A DNA stretch of 13,232 nucleotides, taken from a virus. Positions within the stretch are counted from its first letter, which is position 1. Every line of letters begins with the position of its first letter. The stretch lies in UHGV virus genome UHGV-0258858; one strand, given 5' to 3'. The position numbers were made by a program, and so were the translations under genes. Of the stretch, positions 1,723 to 11,881 are shown piece after piece. The notes beneath the pieces are model-generated. The model worked only from the letters and a program-made list of their open reading frames with translations, was not told the origin of the DNA and ran no database searches.

Positions 1723-2811
1723 TTACGCGGCAGGGACATTAACGGTTACTGTCGCCAGAGCGACAAAATTACCGTTATCACTCATGACCACGACCGACGT
1801 TGTTCCTTTCTCAAGTGCGTTTACCGTCACTGTGTTCTCCTTCAACGTGGCTGTGGCCACCGCACGATGCACGGTCGACACCCTTAATGAAGGATCAGAC
1901 GCATTATCCGGCAACACAGCCACAGTAAGTGTGCCTGCCTTCCCTTTTTCTAGGGTCAGGGTTTCCGGTTTAATGGTCACACCGGAAACCGGCGTAATTT
2001 TAGTGAGATTTTCAGCCATCGACGGGCGTCCCACATTGGTAACTTTCACCGTTCTGGTGATCACTTCCTTCGCCGTCACGGCCTTACCGATACTGCTGAC
2101 CCAGCCACTGAACACATCCACCGTACCATTCGGGAACCGGATTTTATAGGCCCTGACATCCCCGCTTTCAAACCATGCGATAAGCCCTTTCTGACCTTTC
2201 TCACCCGGTTTCCAGGCCAGCGTAAAACTGGTATCACCTGCAGATTTCTGTCCCTGCCCGGTCGCGGTCCAGTCCGCGTCTTCATCATCCAGGTAGTTAT
2301 CATCGTAGGATTCAGCCGTCATCTCGCCCGGCGTCAGATCCTTCACCTTAGCCAGTCGCTGCCAGTCATCGTCTGACAACGGGTTTGCATAAGCATCAGC
2401 CTTGCCGTTGTAAACCCACAGAGTGGTACCGGCACCTTTTACCGGCTCCAGGGGATTTGGTGTTGCCATATCGTCATCACGATGATACTCATAGCCCTGC
2501 GTAACCATCGTGGTAATCAGTCCTGCCAGTGCCGGGATCGCAGTCATCGCCGGATAAATCCGGCTTTCCATCCACTGATCGAGCTCCGAATCAGGTACCT
2601 GTGCCGGTAAAAACACCTCAATATGCAGTGTGGCCCGCCAGGTATCTGCATCCAGCTCTTCACCGGTATACTCTGCATCCGTCAGATAAACCGCGATCGC
2701 AGGAAAATCCTCTTCGTCAAAAACAACGGGGCGACCATCAAACAGCGTCGCCCCGTGTTCATGCTGCTCGAGTGCATCCAGCACTGCGGCACGAATGTCA
2801 GTGTGTTTCAT
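1723..2811 (-). CDS. Single 362-codon ORF: tail terminator (lambda gpU-like, residues 1-114, 2470..2811) fused in frame to major tail protein with C-terminal Ig-like domain (lambda gpV-like, 248 aa, 1723..2469)
   Basis: N-terminus [28 protein letters not shown]...[10 protein letters not shown] matches lambda gpU residues 1-114. It is followed directly by [20 protein letters not shown]...VTVNVPAA, which matches lambda gpV from its initiator Met. There is no stop, intergenic spacer or ribosome-binding site between the two parts. The U start overlaps the Z stop (ATGA). Confidence 0.85.
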
Positions 2812-3356: not shown

Positions 3357-3710
3357 TTATCGTCGCCGGTTAACAGCGGGTGGTTGCCCACGGTTGAGCC
3401 AGAGATAACAGCTTCCCCCGTCATCCGGAGAAACACGATCCACCCAGAACATCTCGCCGTTAATGGTCAGCGTGTCACCACGCTGCACGGCACGCACCGT
3501 ATCCGTCCGCACAAATAATGACGGGCTGCTTCCTTCAATACGGACCCCGCCACCGGCAAAACCCAGCGACTCCGGATCGTCAAAAACCCCCTGAACTTCG
3601 CTTCCACGCTGTGCTCCCGAGGTGAACTGCGCACAGAGCCCCATCACTTCAACAATCGTGCTGTCCACCCCGGCAAGGGCAGCATCAAAGGCATTCTGAA
3701 AATCACGCAT
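3357..3710 (-). CDS. FII: Head-tail joining protein (lambda gpFII-like), 117 aa
   Basis: MRDFQNAFDAALAGVD...GVFDDPESLGFAGGGVRIEGSSPSLFVRTDTVRAVQRGDTLTINGEMFWVDRVSPDDGGSCYLWLNRGQPPAVNRRR is near-identical in length and motif order to lambda gpFII. Confidence 0.92.
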   Translation of the reverse strand: MRDFQNAFDAALAGVDSTIVEVMGLCAQFTSGAQRGSEVQGVFDDPESLGFAGGGVRIEGSSPSLFVRTDTVRAVQRGDTLTINGEMFWVDRVSPDDGGSCYLWLNRGQPPAVNRRR

Positions 3711-3939
3711 GCTCAGCCGTTCCGTGCTGTATCATGGCTGTCGCCAGTGGTGATGGCACCATAACACGCATGCCCCGGTACGTCAGTTCAACGGGACGGC
3801 CTGTCTCCGGGCAATACCCCATCACATGCAGGCATTTCCGCACACGGACCGCTTTAACATCATCCGTAGCATCCGTGTTGTGCAACTGCTCACCATCGTC
3901 TGTGTGATTTTGATCAGCCCCGCTCTCATCAGAGTGCAT
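3703..3939 (-). CDS. FI: C-terminal portion of DNA-packaging protein FI (lambda gpFI-like), 78 aa, separated from the N-terminal portion by an in-frame TAA
   Basis: ATG at 3939 preceded by GGAGGG at about 6-nt spacing. Acidic linker-like N-terminus (SDESGADQNHTDDGEQLHNTDATDD) followed by a region resembling the lambda FI C-terminal domain. Same frame as the N-terminal piece. Confidence 0.6.
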   Translation of the reverse strand: MHSDESGADQNHTDDGEQLHNTDATDDVKAVRVRKCLHVMGYCPETGRPVELTYRGMRVMVPSPLATAMIQHGTAEHA

Positions 3940-3969
3940 AATGCCCTCCGGGGAAACAGCAAGCTCCTC

Positions 3970-4086
3970 TTACCACTCAGACACACGTTGAGCAATATCC
4001 GCAGCACTCCCCGACATATCCGCCTCTCGCCCCAGCAGGCCAGCCAGTTCACGAAGGCGATTCAGATTTTCTTCTTTTGTTGCCAT
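3970..4086 (-). CDS. FI: N-terminal portion of DNA-packaging protein FI (lambda gpFI-like), 38 aa, ended by an in-frame TAA
   Basis: ATG at 4086 preceded by AGGAGA at 7-nt spacing. MATKEENLNRLRELAGLLGREADMSGSAADIAQRVSEW resembles the lambda FI N-terminus (MTKDELIARLRSLGEQLNRD...LALRVAEL). TAA at 3970-3972. Not in the ORF track because it is shorter than the cut-off. Confidence 0.6.
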   Translation of the reverse strand: MATKEENLNRLRELAGLLGREADMSGSAADIAQRVSEW

Positions 4087-4099
4087 CTCAGTCTCCTGT

Positions 4100-4131
4100 G
4101 AAAAAAGACACGGGGGCATTTCGCCCCCGCT
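4100..4131 (-). terminator. Rho-independent terminator immediately downstream of the major capsid gene
   Basis: Minus-strand CGGGGGC-GAAAT-GCCCCCG (7-bp GC stem, 5-nt loop; 4111-4117 pairs with 4123-4129) followed by GTCTTTTTTC. It starts 7 nt after the gpE stop. Confidence 0.7.
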
Positions 4132-4137
4132 CACGGA

Positions 4138-5166
4138 TTATTTCACCTGCACCACCACAAACTCATCCGGATCCGGCAGCACCATCAGCGGTGCGGACTG
4201 CGTCATGGTGAATTCACGGGCCGGATCGCCCACAGTCAGCCAGTGTTTCGGATAACGGGAAGAGGCCACCACACCTTCGGACAACGCCTGCGCATCCTGA
4301 ATGGCACCATAGCAACGAATGCCCTCTGCTGCCGTATTCCCCAGGACCAGTGTGCCCTCCGGCAGATAACGTTTTTCGGTACCGTCCTCTGCCACATAAG
4401 ACGTTTTCGCCACCACAATGGCCAGATCGCCGTAATACCCCTTGAAGGACACCACCGCCCCCAGGTCTTTCACTGCCGTTTCGAGTTGTGAATTTGAGCC
4501 GCGACGGGTATCCAGGTTTTCGCGGAACAGCTTAAAGCCATTCAGCAGACGCCAGACCGTACCGTCCATAATGGCGATATTCACAAGGCCGCTGGCCTGA
4601 TCGCAGTAGAGGTCAATATCATGCGTCGGATCAAACGTATCACGGTCCTGCTCAGACCATTTTTTACCGTCAGCCTGCTCAATGTTATTTCCTTCAGAGC
4701 GCCCGAAATCCACCTCGACAGTATCAAACTGATCCCCTTCCATGGTGTATTTGCCATACAGCACGGCATTCACCGCCTGCATTTCTTCCACCTGGACAAT
4801 GGCGTGCTCTTCCTGTTTGAGGTTATCGGTAATGATACGCAGACGACGGTAGGCCGGGTCGTTCAGCTGAGCCGGATCTTCACCGGGAAGGCGCTCAACC
4901 GCCTGCTGGTAATTAAATTCGTGTTTCGGCTTAACGTAGCCCGGACGTAACACGCGGGTTTCACCACCGCGATGGCGAAGCACTTTTCCTTCAACGATCG
5001 GGGAGACATAGGCCGCCACCGGCGTTTTTCCGGTAATTTTGTCCAGCATCACCTCTTCGGTGTGGAAATTCACCGTACGGCGGAAAAACAGCTCCAGAAA
5101 CAGCGCACGGAATTTAACTTTTTGTTCGGTATAACCGAGTAACTGGCGGGTCGTAAACAATCCCAT
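4138..5166 (-). CDS. E: Major capsid protein (lambda gpE-like), 342 aa
   Basis: MGLFTTRQLLGYTEQKVKF...PGYVKPKHE...VQVEEMQAV...KYTMEGDQFD...LDTRRGSNSQLETAVKDLG...GDPAREFTMTQSAPLMVLPDPDEFVVVQVK is collinear with lambda gpE (341 aa). AGGA ribosome-binding site 8 nt upstream of the ATG. Confidence 0.95.
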   Translation of the reverse strand: MGLFTTRQLLGYTEQKVKFRALFLELFFRRTVNFHTEEVMLDKITGKTPVAAYVSPIVEGKVLRHRGGETRVLRPGYVKPKHEFNYQQAVERLPGEDPAQLNDPAYRRLRIITDNLKQEEHAIVQVEEMQAVNAVLYGKYTMEGDQFDTVEVDFGRSEGNNIEQADGKKWSEQDRDTFDPTHDIDLYCDQASGLVNIAIMDGTVWRLLNGFKLFRENLDTRRGSNSQLETAVKDLGAVVSFKGYYGDLAIVVAKTSYVAEDGTEKRYLPEGTLVLGNTAAEGIRCYGAIQDAQALSEGVVASSRYPKHWLTVGDPAREFTMTQSAPLMVLPDPDEFVVVQVK

Positions 5167-5223: not shown

Positions 5224-5571
5224 TTACGGCAGAGCCGCGTGACTCAGGGCTGTACCGGCAAAGGCATTTGCCTTTTTGTGTTCATCCACACTGTCAGGCC
5301 AGCGGATTGCCTCCGTCGCAAAGGTCCCCGACTTGTAATAGGTCAGCACCGTCTCTGTGCCTTCAAGCGGCAGTACCAGTATGCCAGCCGCACTACCGGC
5401 TTTCTGTCCATCCCAGACCACCAGTTTCCCGGTGGCTTCATCCAGCATCAGGGGCGTCAGAGCCGGTGTTGCCTGAGAAATCCCGCTGCTGCCTGTGGCG
5501 ATATGAGCCGGATCATTACCGGCAAAAATACGTACTTCTGCACGTTGTTCAGTGATGGTTTTCGTTACCAT
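5224..5571 (-). CDS. D: Head decoration protein (lambda gpD-like), 115 aa
   Basis: Motifs DPAHIATG...TPLMLD...KLVVWDG...GILV...YYKSGTF...FAGTA match lambda gpD. ATG at 5571 with GAGGT about 9 nt upstream. Confidence 0.9.
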   Translation of the reverse strand: MVTKTITEQRAEVRIFAGNDPAHIATGSSGISQATPALTPLMLDEATGKLVVWDGQKAGSAAGILVLPLEGTETVLTYYKSGTFATEAIRWPDSVDEHKKANAFAGTALSHAALP

Positions 5572-5607
5572 ATTGTAAAAACCTCATATTGATGGTCAGC
5601 ACTGACT

Positions 5608-7113
5608 TCATGGCATGGCCATGAGCATTTTCACGTCCGCATCACCGTCTGCTGACGTCTGTGACACGCCACCCTGCACGGCTGCCGGTGAATGGTTCGC
5701 CATGAAATGTTCAAACAGGGCGGTTGTGGATGCAGAGACCGGTTCTGCTTTATCCGGCAATGAGGACAGAATGTCGCGGGCAGCCTCCACCGTCATTCCG
5801 GGAAACGCCGCCAGTTTTTCAGCCTGCGCCTCAGCCCCTTTTGCCTCATCCAGAGCCATAATCTGATCACGGAGTGAGGGTCCGGCATCCGCCTGCGGTG
5901 AAGCCGCCAGGATCGGGCGGGCTTTTTCCACCGTCATCTCCGGCATCGCCGCCAGCGTTGCCGCCAGTTGTTCACGACCTTTAGCCTCTTCACACGCCAT
6001 AATGCGATCGGCTTCACTCTGCGTGGATGCCACCGGCTGCTGTGGTGCTGCCGCGGTCAGAATCGCCCGGGCCTGTTCAACGCTCATGCCCTGTTGTCCT
6101 GCCAGCATCGTGGCAAGGTGTTCACGTCCTTTCGCTTCCTGACACGTCAGGATCCCCATCACTCGCTGGTTCTCCTGCGCGGCAGCTTCCGTTGCAGTTA
6201 ATTGCGGCATAGTGCCTCCTGTATCATGTGTGTTCAGCGCCGCAGCCATCACGCTGATGGCATCCGACGCATTGATTAATTCATCCGCCAGCCCGGCCTC
6301 AATGCCGGACTGACCTTCAAAAACGGCGGCCTCTGTTCCCGTGACTGCATCAACAGACAGACCGGTATACATCGCCACTTTTTCGGCAAACATCCGGCGC
6401 GCCGCATCAATCCGCTGCTGCATGTCCTGGCGAACCTCTTCCGGCAACGCTTCAAACCGATTGCCATCCACCTTGTGCGCCCCTGAGTAAATCAGCGTGA
6501 TATCCACACCGGCCTGCGCCAGATGACCGGCATAGCTGACATGGCTCATCATCACGCCAATGGAGCCGATACGGGATGTCTGGGTAACCAGCCGTCGGGA
6601 GCAGGCCGACGCCAGCAGCATGGCTGCAGAACAGGCCGTGTCATTGCACAGTGCCCAGACCGGCTTCTGCTGACGGAGGCGGTAAATCATGTCAGCACAG
6701 TCAAACGCACCGGCGGCCTGCCCGCCCGGACTGTCAATGTCCAGCAGTACACCCCGCACCTGGCTATCCGCCATTGCCTGCTGAAGACAGGCGACAATGC
6801 CGTCATAGCCTGTCATTCCGGAAAATGGCCGCATACCCCCCAGCCGGTGCACCAGCGTGCCTGTCACCGGCAGTACAGCAATACCGTTCACCACCCGGTA
6901 AACACGGGCCGGTCGTTTACCTCCGGCCATGTACTCGTCCGTTTCAGCCAGCATTCCGGGTGCATCAAGCTGTACCTGCTGTTGTGGTACCGAAAGACTT
7001 GCTGCCCCCATCTCGCGCCCGAGCGCGCAAAAGAAAACCCGCGCATAGGCGGGCTCCAGAAGCAGCGGTTCATTGAATGCTGCTGCAATAATGTGTGAAA
7101 GATTACGTCTCAC
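5608..7113 (-). CDS. C: Prohead protease / scaffold (lambda gpC-like, S49 ClpP-fold peptidase N-terminal domain with Nu3-like scaffolding C-terminal region), 501 codons from a GTG start
   Basis: N-terminal LSHIIAAAFNEPLLLEPAYARVFFCAL...VNGIAVLPV(T)GTLV...GMTGYDGI...LLDIDSPGG...AFDCAD...KPVWAL...SRRLVTQTSRIGSIGVMM...VDITLIYSGAHKVDGN aligns with lambda gpC. GTG at 7113 preceded by AGAGGAGA and overlapping the portal stop. Confidence 0.9.
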   Translation of the reverse strand: MRRNLSHIIAAAFNEPLLLEPAYARVFFCALGREMGAASLSVPQQQVQLDAPGMLAETDEYMAGGKRPARVYRVVNGIAVLPVTGTLVHRLGGMRPFSGMTGYDGIVACLQQAMADSQVRGVLLDIDSPGGQAAGAFDCADMIYRLRQQKPVWALCNDTACSAAMLLASACSRRLVTQTSRIGSIGVMMSHVSYAGHLAQAGVDITLIYSGAHKVDGNRFEALPEEVRQDMQQRIDAARRMFAEKVAMYTGLSVDAVTGTEAAVFEGQSGIEAGLADELINASDAISVMAAALNTHDTGGTMPQLTATEAAAQENQRVMGILTCQEAKGREHLATMLAGQQGMSVEQARAILTAAAPQQPVASTQSEADRIMACEEAKGREQLAATLAAMPEMTVEKARPILAASPQADAGPSLRDQIMALDEAKGAEAQAEKLAAFPGMTVEAARDILSSLPDKAEPVSASTTALFEHFMANHSPAAVQGGVSQTSADGDADVKMLMAMP

Positions 7114-8695
7114 GTGGTGTTGTCTCCTCTTCCGGCCTGCGACTCTCCGCTATCTGCTGCTGATACGCCTGCACTATCCACACCGGACGTGAGAGTCCGG
7201 CTTTTTCCCGCTCTGCAGATTCCCTGACCTGCTGGCGGAAAATGTCCTGATAATCCTCGCCCATCAGCGCCAGCTCTTTCTCATACGTGCTCAGTCCGGC
7301 CTCAATGCGCATCACTGATTCCTGAACCTCCTTGAGCCCGTCAATGGCCATTCTTCCGGCTCCAATCCACTCAGCCCGTGACCAGGCTGATCGCGCCTGA
7401 TAAAAATCAAAACGTGCCCGTGGCGGACGAATAATCCCCCGAAGAAGTGCCTCTTCCAGCCAGCAGGAAAACATCTGCGTGGCCAGCCGGGACGCAATAA
7501 ATTTTCGCCGCCCCATAAAATAGCGCCACGACTCATTGGCGGATGCGCGGGCACTTGAATAACTGACCTTCGAGTAATCACGGGACAACTGTTCGTAGGA
7601 AACGCCAAGACCGGCGGCGATATACCGCAGCAGCGCCTGTTCAAGCGCCGAAAATCCATTGTCTGAATCCTGCGCGGTCTGAAGTTTCAGATCATCACCG
7701 GGGAAAAGGTGCGGAATTTTGACACCGCCCAGCGTCACGCTATTCGTGTCATACCAGGTGGAGAACTTATCCAGAATATTAATAAGCGGATTATCCTTCT
7801 GCCCCTGCGGCGCACCGGCGATATATTCAAAGGCCTTTTCGGTATCAAGGTCACTTTCAATCGTCGCTGCATACATCGCCTTCACTATGGCCGACTGAAG
7901 CTGTGTTGCCTGCAGGGAATCCAGCATCTTCAGCCGTTCCATAACGCTGTAAAACTGATTGGCTCCACGGGTCTGCCCGTCCTCCACCGGCTCGAAAATA
8001 TGCAGCATGGCCGGACGCCCGGTGGGAAGTTCACGCGGGATCCGTTCCCATCGTCCACTCCCGGAGCGAGGAAAATCATCCTCACAGATATGGTACGCAA
8101 CGGCACGGCCATATCGATCAACCTCCACACCGGCCCGCAGAAAACGGTTCCCGATACCGTGTCCTGGCGTGTCCACCCGTTTCGGACTCACGGCTTTAAA
8201 ACGCGTACGAAACAGTTGCGTGCTCTCCGTATCCCAGACCGGCTGCACAAAGATTTCGCCGTTAAACGCATGAACGCCCACACCTTCACGGATAAATTCC
8301 GTAAACGTGCGTTTCCCTTCCACGTCGATCTCACCAAACATCCCTTCTGCGTATTCTGACCAGGCCGCCTCCACCTCATCGACAAAACTTTTTGCCGCGG
8401 TCTCCCGCATCCCCAGCCAGCGCCAGTTCGGACGGTAGCTAATCAGAAACATATGCCCGACAATGTGATCCTTATGCAGGGCCACCGCATTGGCCGCTAT
8501 TCCGTTATTGCGCACCAGATCATCTGCACGGGCATTCCCCAGACGCAACGCGGGCAGCAGGGCCGCATCGGCACTCTGCGAGGGTGGCAACCACTCTGCC
8601 ATTTGCCCGCCAAATCCTGCGCCGCCCCCGTTGTAGCTTAGGCTCTCCCGAAGCGGAACGCCGTTCACATCAATCAGGACAGGCGTTCGTTTCAT
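7103..8695 (-). CDS. B: Portal protein (lambda gpB-like), 530 aa
   Basis: MKRTPVLI...FEPVEDGQTRGANQFYSVMERLKMLDSLQATQLQSAIVKAMYAATIESDLD...SYEQLSRDYSKVSYSSARASANESW...RMAIDGLKEVQESVMRIEAGLSTYEKE is collinear with lambda gpB (533 aa). Confidence 0.95.
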   Translation of the reverse strand: MKRTPVLIDVNGVPLRESLSYNGGGAGFGGQMAEWLPPSQSADAALLPALRLGNARADDLVRNNGIAANAVALHKDHIVGHMFLISYRPNWRWLGMRETAAKSFVDEVEAAWSEYAEGMFGEIDVEGKRTFTEFIREGVGVHAFNGEIFVQPVWDTESTQLFRTRFKAVSPKRVDTPGHGIGNRFLRAGVEVDRYGRAVAYHICEDDFPRSGSGRWERIPRELPTGRPAMLHIFEPVEDGQTRGANQFYSVMERLKMLDSLQATQLQSAIVKAMYAATIESDLDTEKAFEYIAGAPQGQKDNPLINILDKFSTWYDTNSVTLGGVKIPHLFPGDDLKLQTAQDSDNGFSALEQALLRYIAAGLGVSYEQLSRDYSKVSYSSARASANESWRYFMGRRKFIASRLATQMFSCWLEEALLRGIIRPPRARFDFYQARSAWSRAEWIGAGRMAIDGLKEVQESVMRIEAGLSTYEKELALMGEDYQDIFRQQVRESAEREKAGLSRPVWIVQAYQQQIAESRRPEEETTPRET

Positions 8696-8896
8696 AACCT
8701 CACTCCCAGCGGACGACGGCGACGGCGGGTTGTCCCCAGTACCGACTCCGCATCATTGAGCCCGGTTAAGCTCATCCAGAGAAGCTGCCGTATATTCAAT
8801 TCTGCGACCATCTTTCTGGACAGACACCACCCGTTTACCGGTTAATAAATCAAGGCGCGCCTGACGCAGCGCCTGCAGTTCAGCGACTGTAACCAT
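8692..8896 (-). pseudogene. W: Head-tail joining protein W (lambda gpW-like) split across two reading frames by an apparent frameshift
   Basis: Frame a: ATG at 8896 (GGAGGAG ribosome-binding site) gives [47 protein letters not shown], then a stop at 8753-8755; this matches lambda gpW residues about 4-50. Frame b (+1): ...[21 protein letters not shown] ends in a TGA that overlaps the portal ATG (ATGA) and matches the lambda gpW C-terminus (...[21 protein letters not shown]). One gene, two frames. Confidence 0.6.
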
Positions 8897-10808
8897 TCAC
8901 TCCTCCGGACAGCTTCGCTGCCAGTTCTTTAAGGGTTGGCCGGGTCGTCTCTTCTTCCCGGGATTTTGCCAGTACAGCCAGATCAAGCTGCCAGCGTTGC
9001 ACGGACACACGTAATGCCGCGTAGGCATACACCAGGCAGTCCAGCGCTTCGTTACGCCGCTTTTTGTTATCCCACAGCAGACGCATCTTTCCTTTTTCCC
9101 ACTTCTCCACAAGCTCTTCCGCCACCAGTTGCTGCGCCTCTGTCTGCGAAAAAATCTCCGGATCATCAGGAAAACGGATGGCATACGACGTGGCTTCATC
9201 CGCAGGCGTGGGATCGGCTTTCATACGGGCATAGAGAATTTCTTTTGCGGTGTCCGTCCCCACTTCGCACAGATACACGCCCCGCTGATTGCGGGTTTTT
9301 GGCATGGTGATCACCGGCTTGCCATAAACAGATGCACCTTTTACCGGCAGCCCCCGGAAAACACCGTGTTTTTTTGACCTCTGATAGACAATTTCGCCAT
9401 CGATCCCCCCGGTGTCCCAGCAGACACGGGAAATGGTCATTTCGGTTCCGTCTGCATGGCGGTATTTTTTGTTGATCGCCACATCCACACGTAACAGCGT
9501 CTCTTCCTCATCGGGACGCCCCATAATGATGATTTTATCCACCAGAAAGGCTTCCTCTCCCGGAGCCCATCCCCAGACATACATCTCAAAACGGTTTCGC
9601 TGCGAGTCAATGCCCGCCGTCAGATAAACCACCCGGGCAGGCACCGCCGCCGTGTAACGCACAACCTTATCCATCAGTACCTGGTGATCGAGTTTTTCGC
9701 CCACGGCCTCTTCCCAGGTCTCGCCCAGCGTGGTGTTCACAAAGGTTTTCAGGCCGTTGGGATCTTTCAGTGCATCCAGCCAGTCATAGACAATCTGTAC
9801 CCAGGTGGTGAACGGACTGTACGCCGTCCAGATATGGAATGTGATGGAGCGCGGCGGCGGAATTTCATTACCCGCAGCGCTGAAAAACGTCAGGCCGTCA
9901 CGGGTCCACATGCCCGTGTTTTCACAGATCCACCGCCCGTTGCTCTGGTCAAGATCAGACTGATGGATCACGCAGCCATGATGTTCACAGAGGTAGAAAA
10001 CACTTTCTGGACTGTCCTTCTCCCATTTAAGGCCAAAAGGCGTGGACTCATCGCCAAATTTCAGATACTGCGCCTCCCCACAGTGTGGGCAGGGCACATA
10101 AAAACGCATGAAATGCGCCGACTCGTTGGCCGCTTTTTCGATCTGGCAGGAGCCTTTTATTTTAGGCGTCGAGCCGCGAATGGATTTTGGCCATACCGAG
10201 CCCTCAATACGCTTATCCCCCAGCAGGGTTGGCGAGCCCTCTTTTTCGACATCCGGCTCGAACGAGGAAAGTTCGTCATAGCAGACCACGTCCACGGATT
10301 TTTCACGGTAGTTTTTTGCTGCCGCACCACCCAGGCACCAGAAGCCCACCCCCGATGAAAAGCGTTTCAGCGTGAGAGTATTGTCACGATGTTTACGACC
10401 CAGCCACGGGGAAAGATCTTTCAGGCATGGCACGTCCCGAATCGTCGCCTCCACGTGAGACTTCATAAAATCTTCAGCGGCAGAATCCGTGGGCTGAAAA
10501 AGCAGACTGTTTCGGGATTTATGCTCAATAAAATACCCGGCGACTCCCAGCAACATCTTTGTATAGCCAACACGGGCAGATTTAATCAGATTAACAGTGC
10601 GGATCTGATCATTCCCCATACTGTTCATGATGGCGATCTGGAACGGCAGCGTTTTCCATTCGCCGTCACCGTATGAGGATTCTTTCGGCAGATAATAATA
10701 CTGGTCAGCCCATTCAACTGCCGTCATCGGTACAACCCTGACCAGAGGCTGCAGCGCAACCGAAACGGCGGCCACCATATTATTCAGTTGTTGCTCTGAT
10801 ATATTCAT
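8880..10808 (-). CDS. A: Terminase large subunit (lambda gpA-like), 642 aa
   Basis: [10 protein letters not shown]...[37 protein letters not shown]...[32 protein letters not shown]...[26 protein letters not shown]...CPHCGE.QYLKFGD...[18 protein letters not shown]...[11 protein letters not shown]...KRRNEALDC is collinear with lambda gpA (641 aa). Start chosen by alignment; the 19-codon upstream extension in the tracked ORF overlaps Nu1 and is rejected. Start overlaps the Nu1 3' end by 29 nt, as in lambda. Confidence 0.95.
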
Positions 10809-11286
10809 CGAGTAAATCCGGTAATTTATCCCCCGCCCGCGCACACTGATTTGCCCCCTTCGCAATAAGGGTTTTCAGATGGTCAAGATGGCGCGGTGTT
10901 AAATCAGGAAACTGTCGCTGCATGGATAACGGAATGGAATCAAGCGTACTGGACAATGCCATCGCCAGTTTGCTGAGGGCGAAAACGCAGAAGTCTGAAT
11001 CGATGAGCTTACCTTCGGTTACCTGATTTTTAAGTTTTTGAGCTACAGCCTGTTCTTCTGTCAGTTCAGCTCTGGCCCGAAGCAGCCTTTCCTCCAGTTC
11101 TCCCCCGTCATCAGGTGTTCTCTGATTGTGTTGTCGCCGCTCGCGATCTATCTCCAGTACAGTTTTAACGTCATATAAAACTTCCCTCCCCCGACGTTCA
11201 ACAGGAGGAACGCCCCATTTATCAAATGCCTGAACAGAGATACCGATGGAGGAGGCCATATCACTTTTATTCAATAAAAAGGCCAT
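10780..11286 (-). CDS. Nu1: Terminase small subunit (lambda gpNu1-like), 168 aa
   Basis: ATG at 11286 immediately preceded by GGAGAGGAG. MAFLLNKSDMASSIGISVQAFDKWGVPPVERRGREVLYD... aligns with the lambda Nu1 N-terminal DNA-binding region (MEVNKKQLADIFGASIRTIQNWQEQGMPV...GNEVLYD); C-terminus ...RQFPDLTPRHLDHLKTLIAKGANQ resembles lambda ...RRFPELENRHVDFLKRDIIKAMNK. The 35-codon upstream extension in the tracked ORF is rejected. Confidence 0.85.
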   Translation of the reverse strand: MAFLLNKSDMASSIGISVQAFDKWGVPPVERRGREVLYDVKTVLEIDRERRQHNQRTPDDGGELEERLLRARAELTEEQAVAQKLKNQVTEGKLIDSDFCVFALSKLAMALSSTLDSIPLSMQRQFPDLTPRHLDHLKTLIAKGANQCARAGDKLPDLLDEYIRATTE

Positions 11287-11502
11287 CTCCTCTCCATAAG
11301 TCATCGATAAAAAGCGAAACAACAACCATGTGTTTTTGCAAAACCATTTGATATCATTGATATTTTTCGCATTGACGACATCAAAACACATCGTAAGGTT
11401 GTTGTATTTATTTTATTTTCACCTTACTTATCAATTAGATATACAAAACAATTAAACAACAACCACCCCCTCAAAAAATCTCATAAATAGTGAAAACGCG
11501 CG
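11287..11502 (-). promoter_or_regulatory. cosB-like terminase-binding region between cosN and the Nu1 start: three copies of a GGTTGTTGT element in direct/inverted/direct arrangement around an AT-rich segment
   Basis: Minus-strand GGTTGTTGTTT at about 11455-11465 and 11317-11327; inverted copy (plus-strand GGTTGTTGTATTT) at 11398-11410. The AT-rich stretch 11410-11455 lies between them. The arrangement parallels lambda R3 / IHF site / R2 / R1, but the repeat sequence is not the lambda one. Confidence 0.6.
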
Positions 11503-11514
11503 AGGTCGCCGCCC
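11503..11514 (-). other. cosN cohesive-end site, exact match to the lambda 12-nt cohesive end GGGCGGCGACCT
   Basis: Minus strand reads ...CCGTTACGGGGCGGCGACCTCGCGCGTTTTCACTATTTATGAGATTTTTT..., matching lambda cosN and its flank (GGGCGGCGACCTCGCGGGTTTTCGCTATTTATGAAAATTTT) with only a few substitutions. Orientation is correct relative to Nu1. Confidence 0.85.
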
Positions 11515-11881
11515 CGTAACGGCCCGGATCGCCGGAAAGGACCCGAGAAAATGATAATGGTTATCAGTTGCAACAAAATCCAGTTTCTTCCACCATCGCA
11601 CCGGACGAGCGACCATGAGGGGACAACGCCACGCTCCGTTAACGCGGTAAACTCCGGTGTTTATCGTTTTTGATTATCCCCGCACACTCGCGCAGAGGAG
11701 TCTCCCGGTAGGGCTGCGGTCTCTGTTCATGTGGGAATACGGCGACGATACTGCGCAAAGACATGCTTCAGAAATACATAAGTAAACTAAAATATTGTAT
11801 CTCTGTGGCTAATTACGTAAATTGGTGGCTTGGCCCCTTTAGCCACCGGCAAATCTTCAGCGGATTATCCTTGGCCGGTTT

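What the first reader, a model, noticed from the sequence alone, without database searches (positions are those of the whole stretch)
3703..4086. FI packaging gene interrupted by an in-frame TAA, with a ribosome-binding site before the next ATG
The N-terminal 38 codons resemble the lambda gpFI N-terminus and end at TAA (3970-3972). Ten codons later in the same frame, an ATG (3939) preceded by GGAGGG opens a 78-codon ORF resembling the FI linker and C-terminal domain. This is either a nonsense mutation inactivating FI or FI expressed as two separate polypeptides. FI is dispensable-but-stimulatory for packaging in lambda, so such a lesion could be tolerated.
Basis: partly seen in the sequence, partly recalled or inferred. 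Interest (0 to 1): 0.55.

Follow-up and report, generated by a model that had tools for sequence, protein, structure and literature searches.

The report
Nonsense-mutated FI gene, decaying prophage
A lambda-type prophage of gut E. coli carries a single-base change that turns codon 39 of its DNA-packaging helper gene FI into a stop codon; this is ordinary gene decay in a prophage that also has two other broken assembly genes, not a new two-part gene design.

Summary
FI runs 4086→3703: 38 codons, TAA (3972-3970), 10 in-frame codons, GGAGGG-N4-ATG (ATG at 3939), then a 78-codon ORF. With the stop masked, the sequence matches Pfam Packaging_FI end to end, and it lies between capsid gene E and FII.

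The stop is a lesion. The closest relatives have GAA (Glu) at this codon in a 384-bp ORF of the same length. Counts of GAA versus TAA are 872 versus 0 among 5,426 complete E. coli genomes, and 88 versus 0 among IMG/VR contigs, where all 86 complete FI ORFs are intact.

The GGAGGG-ATG is already present inside the intact alleles, so it was not acquired to serve a split gene.

The stop is not a sequencing error. The same TAA occurs in at least 12 independently assembled gut-metagenome or SRA contigs, on several mosaic prophage backbones.

The window equals ENA contig ERZ27281170:k141_1491. It also carries a 2-bp frameshift in W and a 61-bp deletion that fuses U to V.

Best reading: an ochre pseudogene allele circulating in a pool of defective, recombining lambdoid prophages. 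Whether the 78-residue fragment is made is untested. Interest is low.

The parts
3703..4086 (-). FI (DNA-packaging chaperone) gene, 384 bp, interrupted by one in-frame ochre codon; a pseudogene allele
   Evidence: Translation. Pfam PF14000 over the full length when joined. Same length as, and 98.8% identical to, the intact CFT073 FI.
3970..4086 (-). 5' ORF: 38 codons plus TAA, equal to the N-terminal helical segment of gpFI
   Evidence: PF14000 model positions 1-36, E=1.6e-9. Called as a 38-aa gene with PF14000 in independent assemblies.
3970..3972 (-). Premature TAA stop (codon 39): GAA to TAA, a G-to-T change on the coding strand at window position 3972
   Evidence: Alignments with PhiR12_1, CFT073 and NCTC9112. 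41-mer test: 0 genomes with TAA versus 872 with GAA. 88/88 GAA in IMG/VR.
3944..3949 (-). Shine-Dalgarno-like GGAGGG, 4 nt upstream of the internal ATG; also present in intact alleles
   Evidence: It encodes Pro-Glu-Gly of the linker in intact FI.
3703..3939 (-). 3' ORF: 78 codons from Met49, covering the acidic linker plus the C-terminal domain (the part homologous to the solved lambda gpFI C-terminal domain)
   Evidence: Alignment to lambda gpFI. PDB 2LSM covers lambda residues 72-132.
3357..3710 (-). FII head-tail joining gene; its ATG overlaps the FI stop (ATGCGTGA), so its translation may be coupled to FI
   Evidence: Pfam Phage_attach E=1.4e-18.
4138..5166 (-). Major capsid protein E (binding partner of gpFI); intact. 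Carries K217N (codon at 4516-4518), which is private to this TAA lineage
   Evidence: Pfam Phage_cap_E E=3.7e-66. Substitution table. N217 41-mer absent from 5,426 genomes.
8753..8896 (-). W (head-tail joining/head completion) truncated to 47 aa by a 2-bp deletion at about 8759/8760; intact W is 68 aa
   Evidence: Same truncated gene called in L008/L016, L013 and L017.
1723..2811 (-). In-frame U-V fusion ORF (362 aa). A 61-bp deletion (junction at about 2475/2476) between 11-bp direct repeats GACGATATGGC removes the last 20 codons of U (19 sense codons plus the stop) and the ribosome-binding site of V
   Evidence: Pfam Phage_tail_U + Phage_TTP_12 + Big_2 on one product.

Best explanation
This is a loss-of-function ochre allele of FI in a lambdoid (lambda/21-type head module) prophage of E. 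coli. A single G-to-T transversion changed Glu39 (GAA) to TAA at the end of the N-terminal helical segment. Shown: the stop is real; it is derived; it is absent from all intact relatives; it is inherited and reassorted among several mosaic prophage backbones; and in this window it sits with two further lesions in assembly genes (W frameshift, U-V fusion). Inferred: translation ends after Trp38 and gives a 38-residue peptide. Ribosomes may restart 30 nt downstream at the pre-existing GGAGGG-N4-AUG. That would make a 78-residue linker plus head-binding-domain fragment and would keep ribosomes flowing to the overlapping FII start. gpFI is thought to act as one chain whose C-terminal domain binds the gpE lattice while the rest promotes docking of the terminase-DNA complex. 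Separating the two parts should therefore abolish or strongly reduce chaperone activity. The allele persists because the prophage is inherited with the host chromosome, is already defective, and can receive FI, W and tails in trans from co-resident lambdoid prophages and recombine with them.
For: Sequence and frame. FI identity and gene order. GAA in PhiR12_1, CFT073 and NCTC9112, which is 99.7% identical over the whole window. 41-mer tests: TAA in 0, GAA in 872 of 5,426 complete genomes. 88/88 GAA and 86/86 intact 127-aa ORFs in IMG/VR. TAA absent from GTDB representative genomes, IMG/VR and JGI metagenomes. The same TAA is in L007, L008/L016, L010-L014 and L017-L020, from different ENA and Logan samples. 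The 38-aa products are on 17 + 12 contigs. Mosaic flanks lie around a near-identical head module. W is truncated and U is fused to V in the window and in independent samples. The SD+ATG pre-exists in intact alleles. Fi, W, U and V are all listed as essential in lambda (PMC10695390). For gpFI function and gpE binding, see PMC4856287 and PMC7889075. The C-terminal domain structure 2LSM covers residues 72-132. Defective lambdoid prophages are complemented by, and recombine with, co-resident ones (PMC2669165). A W-frameshift patch is shared with an otherwise roughly 94%-identical prophage in strain FEX669.
Against: No expression or phenotype data exist. The allele is not private: it occurs on at least three mosaic backbones, and several carriers (L010-L012, L014) show no other lesion in the 8-9 kb that is visible. 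It may therefore be tolerated in otherwise competent phages. The break falls neatly between the N-terminal segment and the linker plus C-terminal domain, and a strong SD/AUG follows, so a stable C-terminal fragment is plausible. The host genome context is unknown, because all carrier contigs are 17 kb or shorter. Co-resident helper prophages are therefore assumed, not shown.
Confidence: 0.85

Rival explanations
1. The split is functional. FI works, fully or partly, as two polypeptides (a 38-aa N-piece plus a 78-aa linker/C-domain piece), or the C-terminal fragment alone suffices. The allele is then neutral or selected rather than a pseudogene.
For: The break lies at the boundary between the N-terminal segment and the linker. 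A GGAGGG-N4-ATG follows 30 nt later. The allele is on at least three mosaic backbones and 29 or more contigs. Some carriers show no other visible lesion.
Against: The SD/ATG is ancestral and lies inside the intact ORF. No diverged relative has the split: 0/872 genomes and 0/88 viral contigs, with 86/86 viral FI ORFs intact. Carriers are nearly identical in the head module, so the allele is young. Most carriers for which the region is covered also have the U-V fusion. A tethering model needs both parts on one chain (PMC4856287).
Confidence: 0.08
2. Full-length FI is still made by read-through or suppression of the TAA (host ochre suppressor, phage suppressor tRNA, or programmed recoding).
For: gpFI is a non-structural accessory factor, so small amounts might help. 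This is the reporter's own reasoning and was not tested.
Against: There is no tRNA gene in the window. The stop is not conserved in any relative. There is no unusual RNA structure around it (z=0.26). UAA is read by both release factors and is the least leaky stop in E. coli (general knowledge).
Confidence: 0.03
3. The TAA is a sequencing or assembly artefact of a metagenome contig.
For: The window is a MEGAHIT-type metagenome contig, ERZ27281170:k141_1491. Co-resident lambdoid prophages can yield chimeric assemblies.
Against: The identical TAA appears in at least 12 contigs from different projects, assemblers and samples: ENA ERZ1303504, ERZ27291998, ERZ27268006, ERZ27263511, ERZ28631070, ERZ28638997, ERZ917635 and ERZ925135, and Logan SRR36641741 and SRR7351995.
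Confidence: 0.01

Closest known systems
Lambda gpFI (DNA-packaging chaperone FI, NP_040588; Pfam PF14000; C-terminal domain PDB 2LSM)
   Same: Same family, same position between E and FII, and the same layout of N-terminal helical segment, acidic linker and C-terminal domain.
   Different: About 28-33% identity to lambda gpFI. Here the ORF is cut by TAA at codon 39. FI overlaps FII by 8 nt (ATGCGTGA), whereas in lambda the two genes are 11 nt apart.
Intact FI of the E. coli CFT073 prophage (WP_000201498.1), the NCTC9112 prophage and the PhiR12 phages
   Same: 384-bp gene, 95-98.8% identical in DNA, with the same internal GGAGGG-ATG and the same neighbours.
   Different: They have GAA at codon 39 and encode one 127-aa protein.
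Laboratory FI amber mutants of lambda and their 'fin' bypass mutants (Murialdo et al. 1981; Murialdo & Tzamtzis 1997; seen here only in reference lists; content recalled from memory)
   Same: A premature stop in FI, with an expected packaging defect that can be alleviated by other changes or by FI supplied in trans.
   Different: This is a natural ochre allele circulating in gut E. coli. No bypass mutation has been shown. E K217N is linked to it, but I could not compare it with the published EFi positions.
Defective lambdoid prophage pool of E. coli O157 Sakai (PMC2669165)
   Same: Lambda-type morphogenesis modules with scattered inactivating lesions. Near-identical genes are shared among prophages, and complementation and recombination between them occur. 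Here there are three lesions in 13 kb, and lesion-bearing patches are shared across mosaic backbones.
   Different: The host strain and the number of co-resident prophages are unknown for this contig. Nothing was tested experimentally.

Membership tests
Packaging_FI / lambda gpFI | Sequence match above the curated family threshold | tested here: met
   PF14000: 57.6 bits against a cut-off of 27, model positions 1-130 of 131, when the two ORFs are joined. The N-piece alone scores 38.7 bits.
Packaging_FI / lambda gpFI | Position between major capsid gene E and head-tail joining gene FII | tested here: met
   Phage_cap_E lies upstream and Phage_attach downstream on the same strand. The order is the same as in lambda.
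Packaging_FI / lambda gpFI | One uninterrupted ORF of about 125-132 codons joining the N-terminal segment to the C-terminal head-binding domain | tested here: not met
   TAA at codon 39. Relatives have an intact 127-codon ORF. It is therefore a disrupted member (pseudogene allele), not a functional one.
Packaging_FI / lambda gpFI | C-terminal domain with the 2LSM fold that binds gpE | tested here: inconclusive
   Residues of the 78-aa ORF align with lambda 72-132. A direct sequence search of the PDB with this protein found nothing significant. No structure was predicted and binding cannot be tested here.
Defective (cryptic) lambdoid prophage | Inactivating lesions in genes essential for particle formation | tested here: met
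   FI nonsense, W frameshift (47 versus 68 aa), and U-V fusion with loss of the V ribosome-binding site. All four genes are listed as essential in lambda.
Defective (cryptic) lambdoid prophage | Integrated in a host chromosome and unable to form plaques by itself | not testable with these tools
   All carrier contigs are 17 kb or shorter and lack host flanks. No culture is available.
Evolved split gene (two-polypeptide FI) | Split state conserved among diverged relatives | tested here: not met
   0 of 872 genome copies and 0 of 88 viral contigs have the stop. Carriers share a near-identical head module.
Evolved split gene (two-polypeptide FI) | Translation signals for the second piece acquired with the split | tested here: not met
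   GGAGGGCATTATG is identical in the intact CFT073, PhiR12_1 and L009 alleles.
Programmed stop-codon read-through / recoding | Conserved stop with a conserved stimulatory context or a dedicated tRNA | tested here: not met
   The stop is not conserved. The local fold is no better than shuffles. There is no tRNA in the window.

The most novel reading that the evidence does not exclude
The ochre allele is not simply dead. The 78-residue linker plus head-binding fragment would be translated from the pre-existing internal SD/AUG. It would keep FII translationally coupled. It would also either retain partial chaperone activity or act as a decoy that occupies gpE sites on proheads of related co-resident or superinfecting lambdoid phages. 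This would explain why the allele persists on several mosaic backbones in gut E. coli.
Probability: 0.08. Interest if true: 0.4.

Novelty: already known. Interest (0 to 1): 0.18.

Why it matters
It matters little beyond correct annotation. The two small ORFs (38 and 78 aa) should be annotated as one FI pseudogene, not as two genes. The contig should be treated as a defective prophage rather than a viable phage genome.

The locus does give a snapshot of prophage decay. Three small lesions (a nonsense codon, a 2-bp frameshift, and a 61-bp slippage deletion between 11-bp repeats) are shuffled among mosaic lambdoid prophages in human-gut E. coli.

It is also a ready-made natural allele for asking whether the two halves of gpFI must be on one chain.

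Tried and rejected
- **PDB sequence search.** A search with the joined protein found only noise. The link to 2LSM had to go through lambda gpFI.
- **Primary literature.** The Popovic et al. 2012 gpFI paper is not held. Searches for 'EFi domain' and 'fin mutations' gave only reference-list hits. I therefore could not test whether E K217N lies in the published bypass region.
- **Compensatory change in E.**
  - The D260/V270 allele seen in one set of TAA carriers also occurs in 118 complete genomes that lack the TAA allele, so it is not specific.
  - K217N is private to the other TAA lineage, but nothing shows it to be compensatory.
- **Suppressor tRNA.** None in the window.
- **RNA structure around the stop and restart.** Unremarkable, z=0.26.
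- I replaced it with a window-derived 43-mer next to the codon.
- **Linear order of lesions (FI, then U-V, then W).** Rejected as strict.
  - The W 2-bp deletion also occurs in strain FEX669 with an intact, different FI allele.
  - Loci L006-L020 were ascertained through products of disrupted FI alleles, mostly the TAA allele.

Full report
**Observation.**
The genes in this part of the window lie on the minus strand. Read that way, the finding is accurate.
- An ATG at 4086 opens 38 codons (MATKEENLNRLRELAGLLGREADMSGSAADIAQRVSEW) that end at TAA, 3972-3970.
- Ten in-frame codons follow.
- GGAGGG (3949-3944) lies 4 nt before an ATG at 3939.
- That ATG opens a 78-codon ORF ending at TGA, 3705-3703.

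The gene is FI.
- The 38-residue piece alone hits Pfam Packaging_FI (PF14000) at E=1.6e-9.
- The two pieces joined across the stop hit it at E=2.4e-15 over model positions 1-130 of 131.
- BLASTP against lambda gpFI gives E=6e-9.
- The neighbours are the major capsid gene E (5166-4138) and FII (3710-3357), as in lambda.

**The stop is derived.**
- Phage PhiR12_1 (95% identical) and the CFT073 prophage (98.8%) have a 384-bp FI of exactly the same length. They have GAA (Glu) where the window has TAA.
- The NCTC9112 prophage is 99.7% identical to the whole 13.2-kb window and also has G at that base.
- I searched a 41-mer centred on the base with megablast, whose 28-nt word must span the centre. 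The TAA version matched none of 5,426 complete E. coli genomes. The GAA version matched 872.
- The TAA 31-mer is absent from the GTDB representative genomes, IMG/VR and the JGI metagenome contigs.
- A 43-mer taken from the window just downstream of the codon retrieved 88 IMG/VR contigs. All 88 have GAA. All 86 in which FI is complete have an intact 127-codon ORF.

**The 'ribosome-binding site' is not an adaptation.**
GGAGGGCATTATG is identical in the intact alleles. There it encodes Pro-Glu-Gly-Ile-Met of the linker. It could support restart after the stop, but it was not acquired for that purpose. The local RNA fold is unremarkable. The window has no tRNA gene.

**The stop is not an error and not private.**
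- The reverse complement of the window is identical to the first 13,232 nt of ENA metagenome contig ERZ27281170:k141_1491.
- Exact look-ups of the two small products found the same TAA in contigs from many other samples: L007, L010-L014 and L017-L020.
- The 38-residue product occurs in two forms, Glu13 and Gln13, on 17 and 12 contigs, all from ENA or Logan assemblies.
- Across carriers the head module, from the 3' part of A to FII, is nearly identical. The Nu1/5'-A and Z-U-V-G flanks differ by up to tens of percent. The allele therefore sits on at least three mosaic backbones.

**Surroundings: the prophage is multiply defective.** Compared with NCTC9112, the window has two more lesions.
- A 2-bp deletion truncates W to 47 residues instead of 68.
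- A 61-bp deletion between 11-bp direct repeats (GACGATATGGC) removes the last 20 codons of U (19 sense codons plus the stop) and the ribosome-binding site of V. It fuses U and V in frame into a 362-residue ORF.

All other head and tail ORFs in the window keep their normal lengths. Fi, W, U and V are all listed as essential in lambda (PMC10695390).

The lesions are distributed among TAA carriers as follows.
- The U-V deletion is present in both TAA haplotypes.
- The W deletion is present in only a subset of TAA carriers.
- L010 has an intact U, but on a recombinant Z-U module.

The W deletion also occurs in one complete genome, E. coli O150:H6 FEX669. That prophage is roughly 94% identical, has an intact phage-21-type FI, and shares only a near-identical patch of about 1 kb around W. 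Lesion-bearing patches are therefore exchanged among prophages, and no strict order of events can be claimed. The carriers were also ascertained through products of disrupted FI alleles, mostly the TAA allele, which biases any inferred order.

**Mechanism.**
- Shown: a G-to-T transversion creates an ochre codon at the end of the N-terminal segment.
- Shown: the solved lambda C-terminal domain (2LSM, residues 72-132) aligns entirely within the 78-codon ORF.
- Inferred: a 38-residue peptide is released, and ribosomes may restart at Met49. That would give a linker plus C-domain fragment and would preserve flow to FII, whose ATG overlaps the FI stop (ATGCGTGA).
- From the literature: gpFI assists docking of the terminase-DNA complex on the prohead and binds the gpE lattice (PMC4856287 and PMC7889075).
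- From my own recollection of Popovic et al. 2012, which is not held in the library: the C-terminal domain does the head binding.
- Inferred: separating the halves should remove the bridging activity, so the allele is expected to behave as null or strongly hypomorphic.

Persistence is explained by vertical inheritance of a prophage that is already defective. Complementation by, and recombination with, co-resident lambdoid prophages are documented for O157 Sakai (PMC2669165). Up to five FI-homologous places per genome occur among complete E. coli genomes.

**Rivals.**
- A functional two-piece FI cannot be excluded. It lacks support because the split is not conserved, the restart signals are ancestral, and most carriers also have the U-V fusion.
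- Read-through and artefact are very unlikely, for the reasons given above.

**Comparison and novelty.**
The gene is a disrupted member of a well-known family, in a well-known kind of element (a decaying lambdoid prophage). FI is independently disrupted in relatives as well: a 1-bp deletion in phage 204576 and a 10-bp deletion in L009. This is ordinary. The only mildly interesting aspects are that the allele circulates on several mosaic backbones and that it cleanly separates the two halves of gpFI.

Noticed in passing
window 8753-8896 (-), deletion at about 8759/8760: Gene W carries a 2-bp deletion (...NRAQ*; 47 aa instead of 68). The same deletion occurs in L008/L016, L013 and L017. It also occurs in the complete genome of E. 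coli O150:H6 FEX669, where PGAP marks W as frameshifted, on a roughly 94%-identical prophage with an intact, different FI.
   Followed up: yes
window 1723-2811 (-), junction at about 2475/2476: A 61-bp deletion between 11-bp direct repeats GACGATATGGC fuses the tail terminator U (first 112 codons) in frame to the tail tube protein V and removes V's GAGG ribosome-binding site. It is present in both TAA haplotypes. No complete E. coli genome matches the junction.
   Followed up: yes
window 4516-4518 (-), codon 217 of E: The major capsid protein has K217N (AAA to AAC). This is found only in the Glu13 TAA lineage and is absent from 5,426 complete genomes. It could be a hitch-hiker or a 'fin'-like compensator of FI loss. 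I could not compare it with the published EFi positions.
   Followed up: partly
window 4110-4130 (-), between E and FI: A GC-rich hairpin (GCGGGGGCGAAATGCCCCCGT) followed by a T run lies in the 51-nt E-FI spacer and looks like an intrinsic terminator. It is conserved in CFT073 and phage 204576. It may attenuate expression of FI and downstream genes relative to E.
   Followed up: no
window 3703-3710 (-): The FI stop and the FII start overlap (ATGCGTGA), which suggests translational coupling. In lambda the two genes are 11 nt apart. A premature stop in FI could therefore be polar on FII unless ribosomes restart at Met49.
   Followed up: no
L002 (phage 204576, CP025907.1) about 614-1000; L009 (ERZ28567805) 7864-8237: There are independent FI lesions in relatives: a 1-bp deletion near codon 18 in phage 204576 and a 10-bp deletion near codon 20 in L009. 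A second 78-aa FI C-terminal product (P0020, MPGDESGPEQ...) is recorded on 61 contigs, with an unknown upstream lesion.
   Followed up: partly
L005 (E. coli NCTC9112) 5425-7354; window about 9376: The closest complete-genome relative has one extra base in the large terminase gene, annotated as frameshifted. The window's terminase ORF is intact. That prophage is defective in a different gene, or the extra base is a long-read assembly error.
   Followed up: no
window about 10480-11700 and about 1200-2300, compared with L007/L010: There are sharp mosaic boundaries. The Nu1/5'-A module (168-aa versus 182-aa Nu1) and the V-G-T module are swapped among carriers of the same head module. One recombination breakpoint lies inside the first 60 nt or so of FI in L007-type contigs.
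   Followed up: partly
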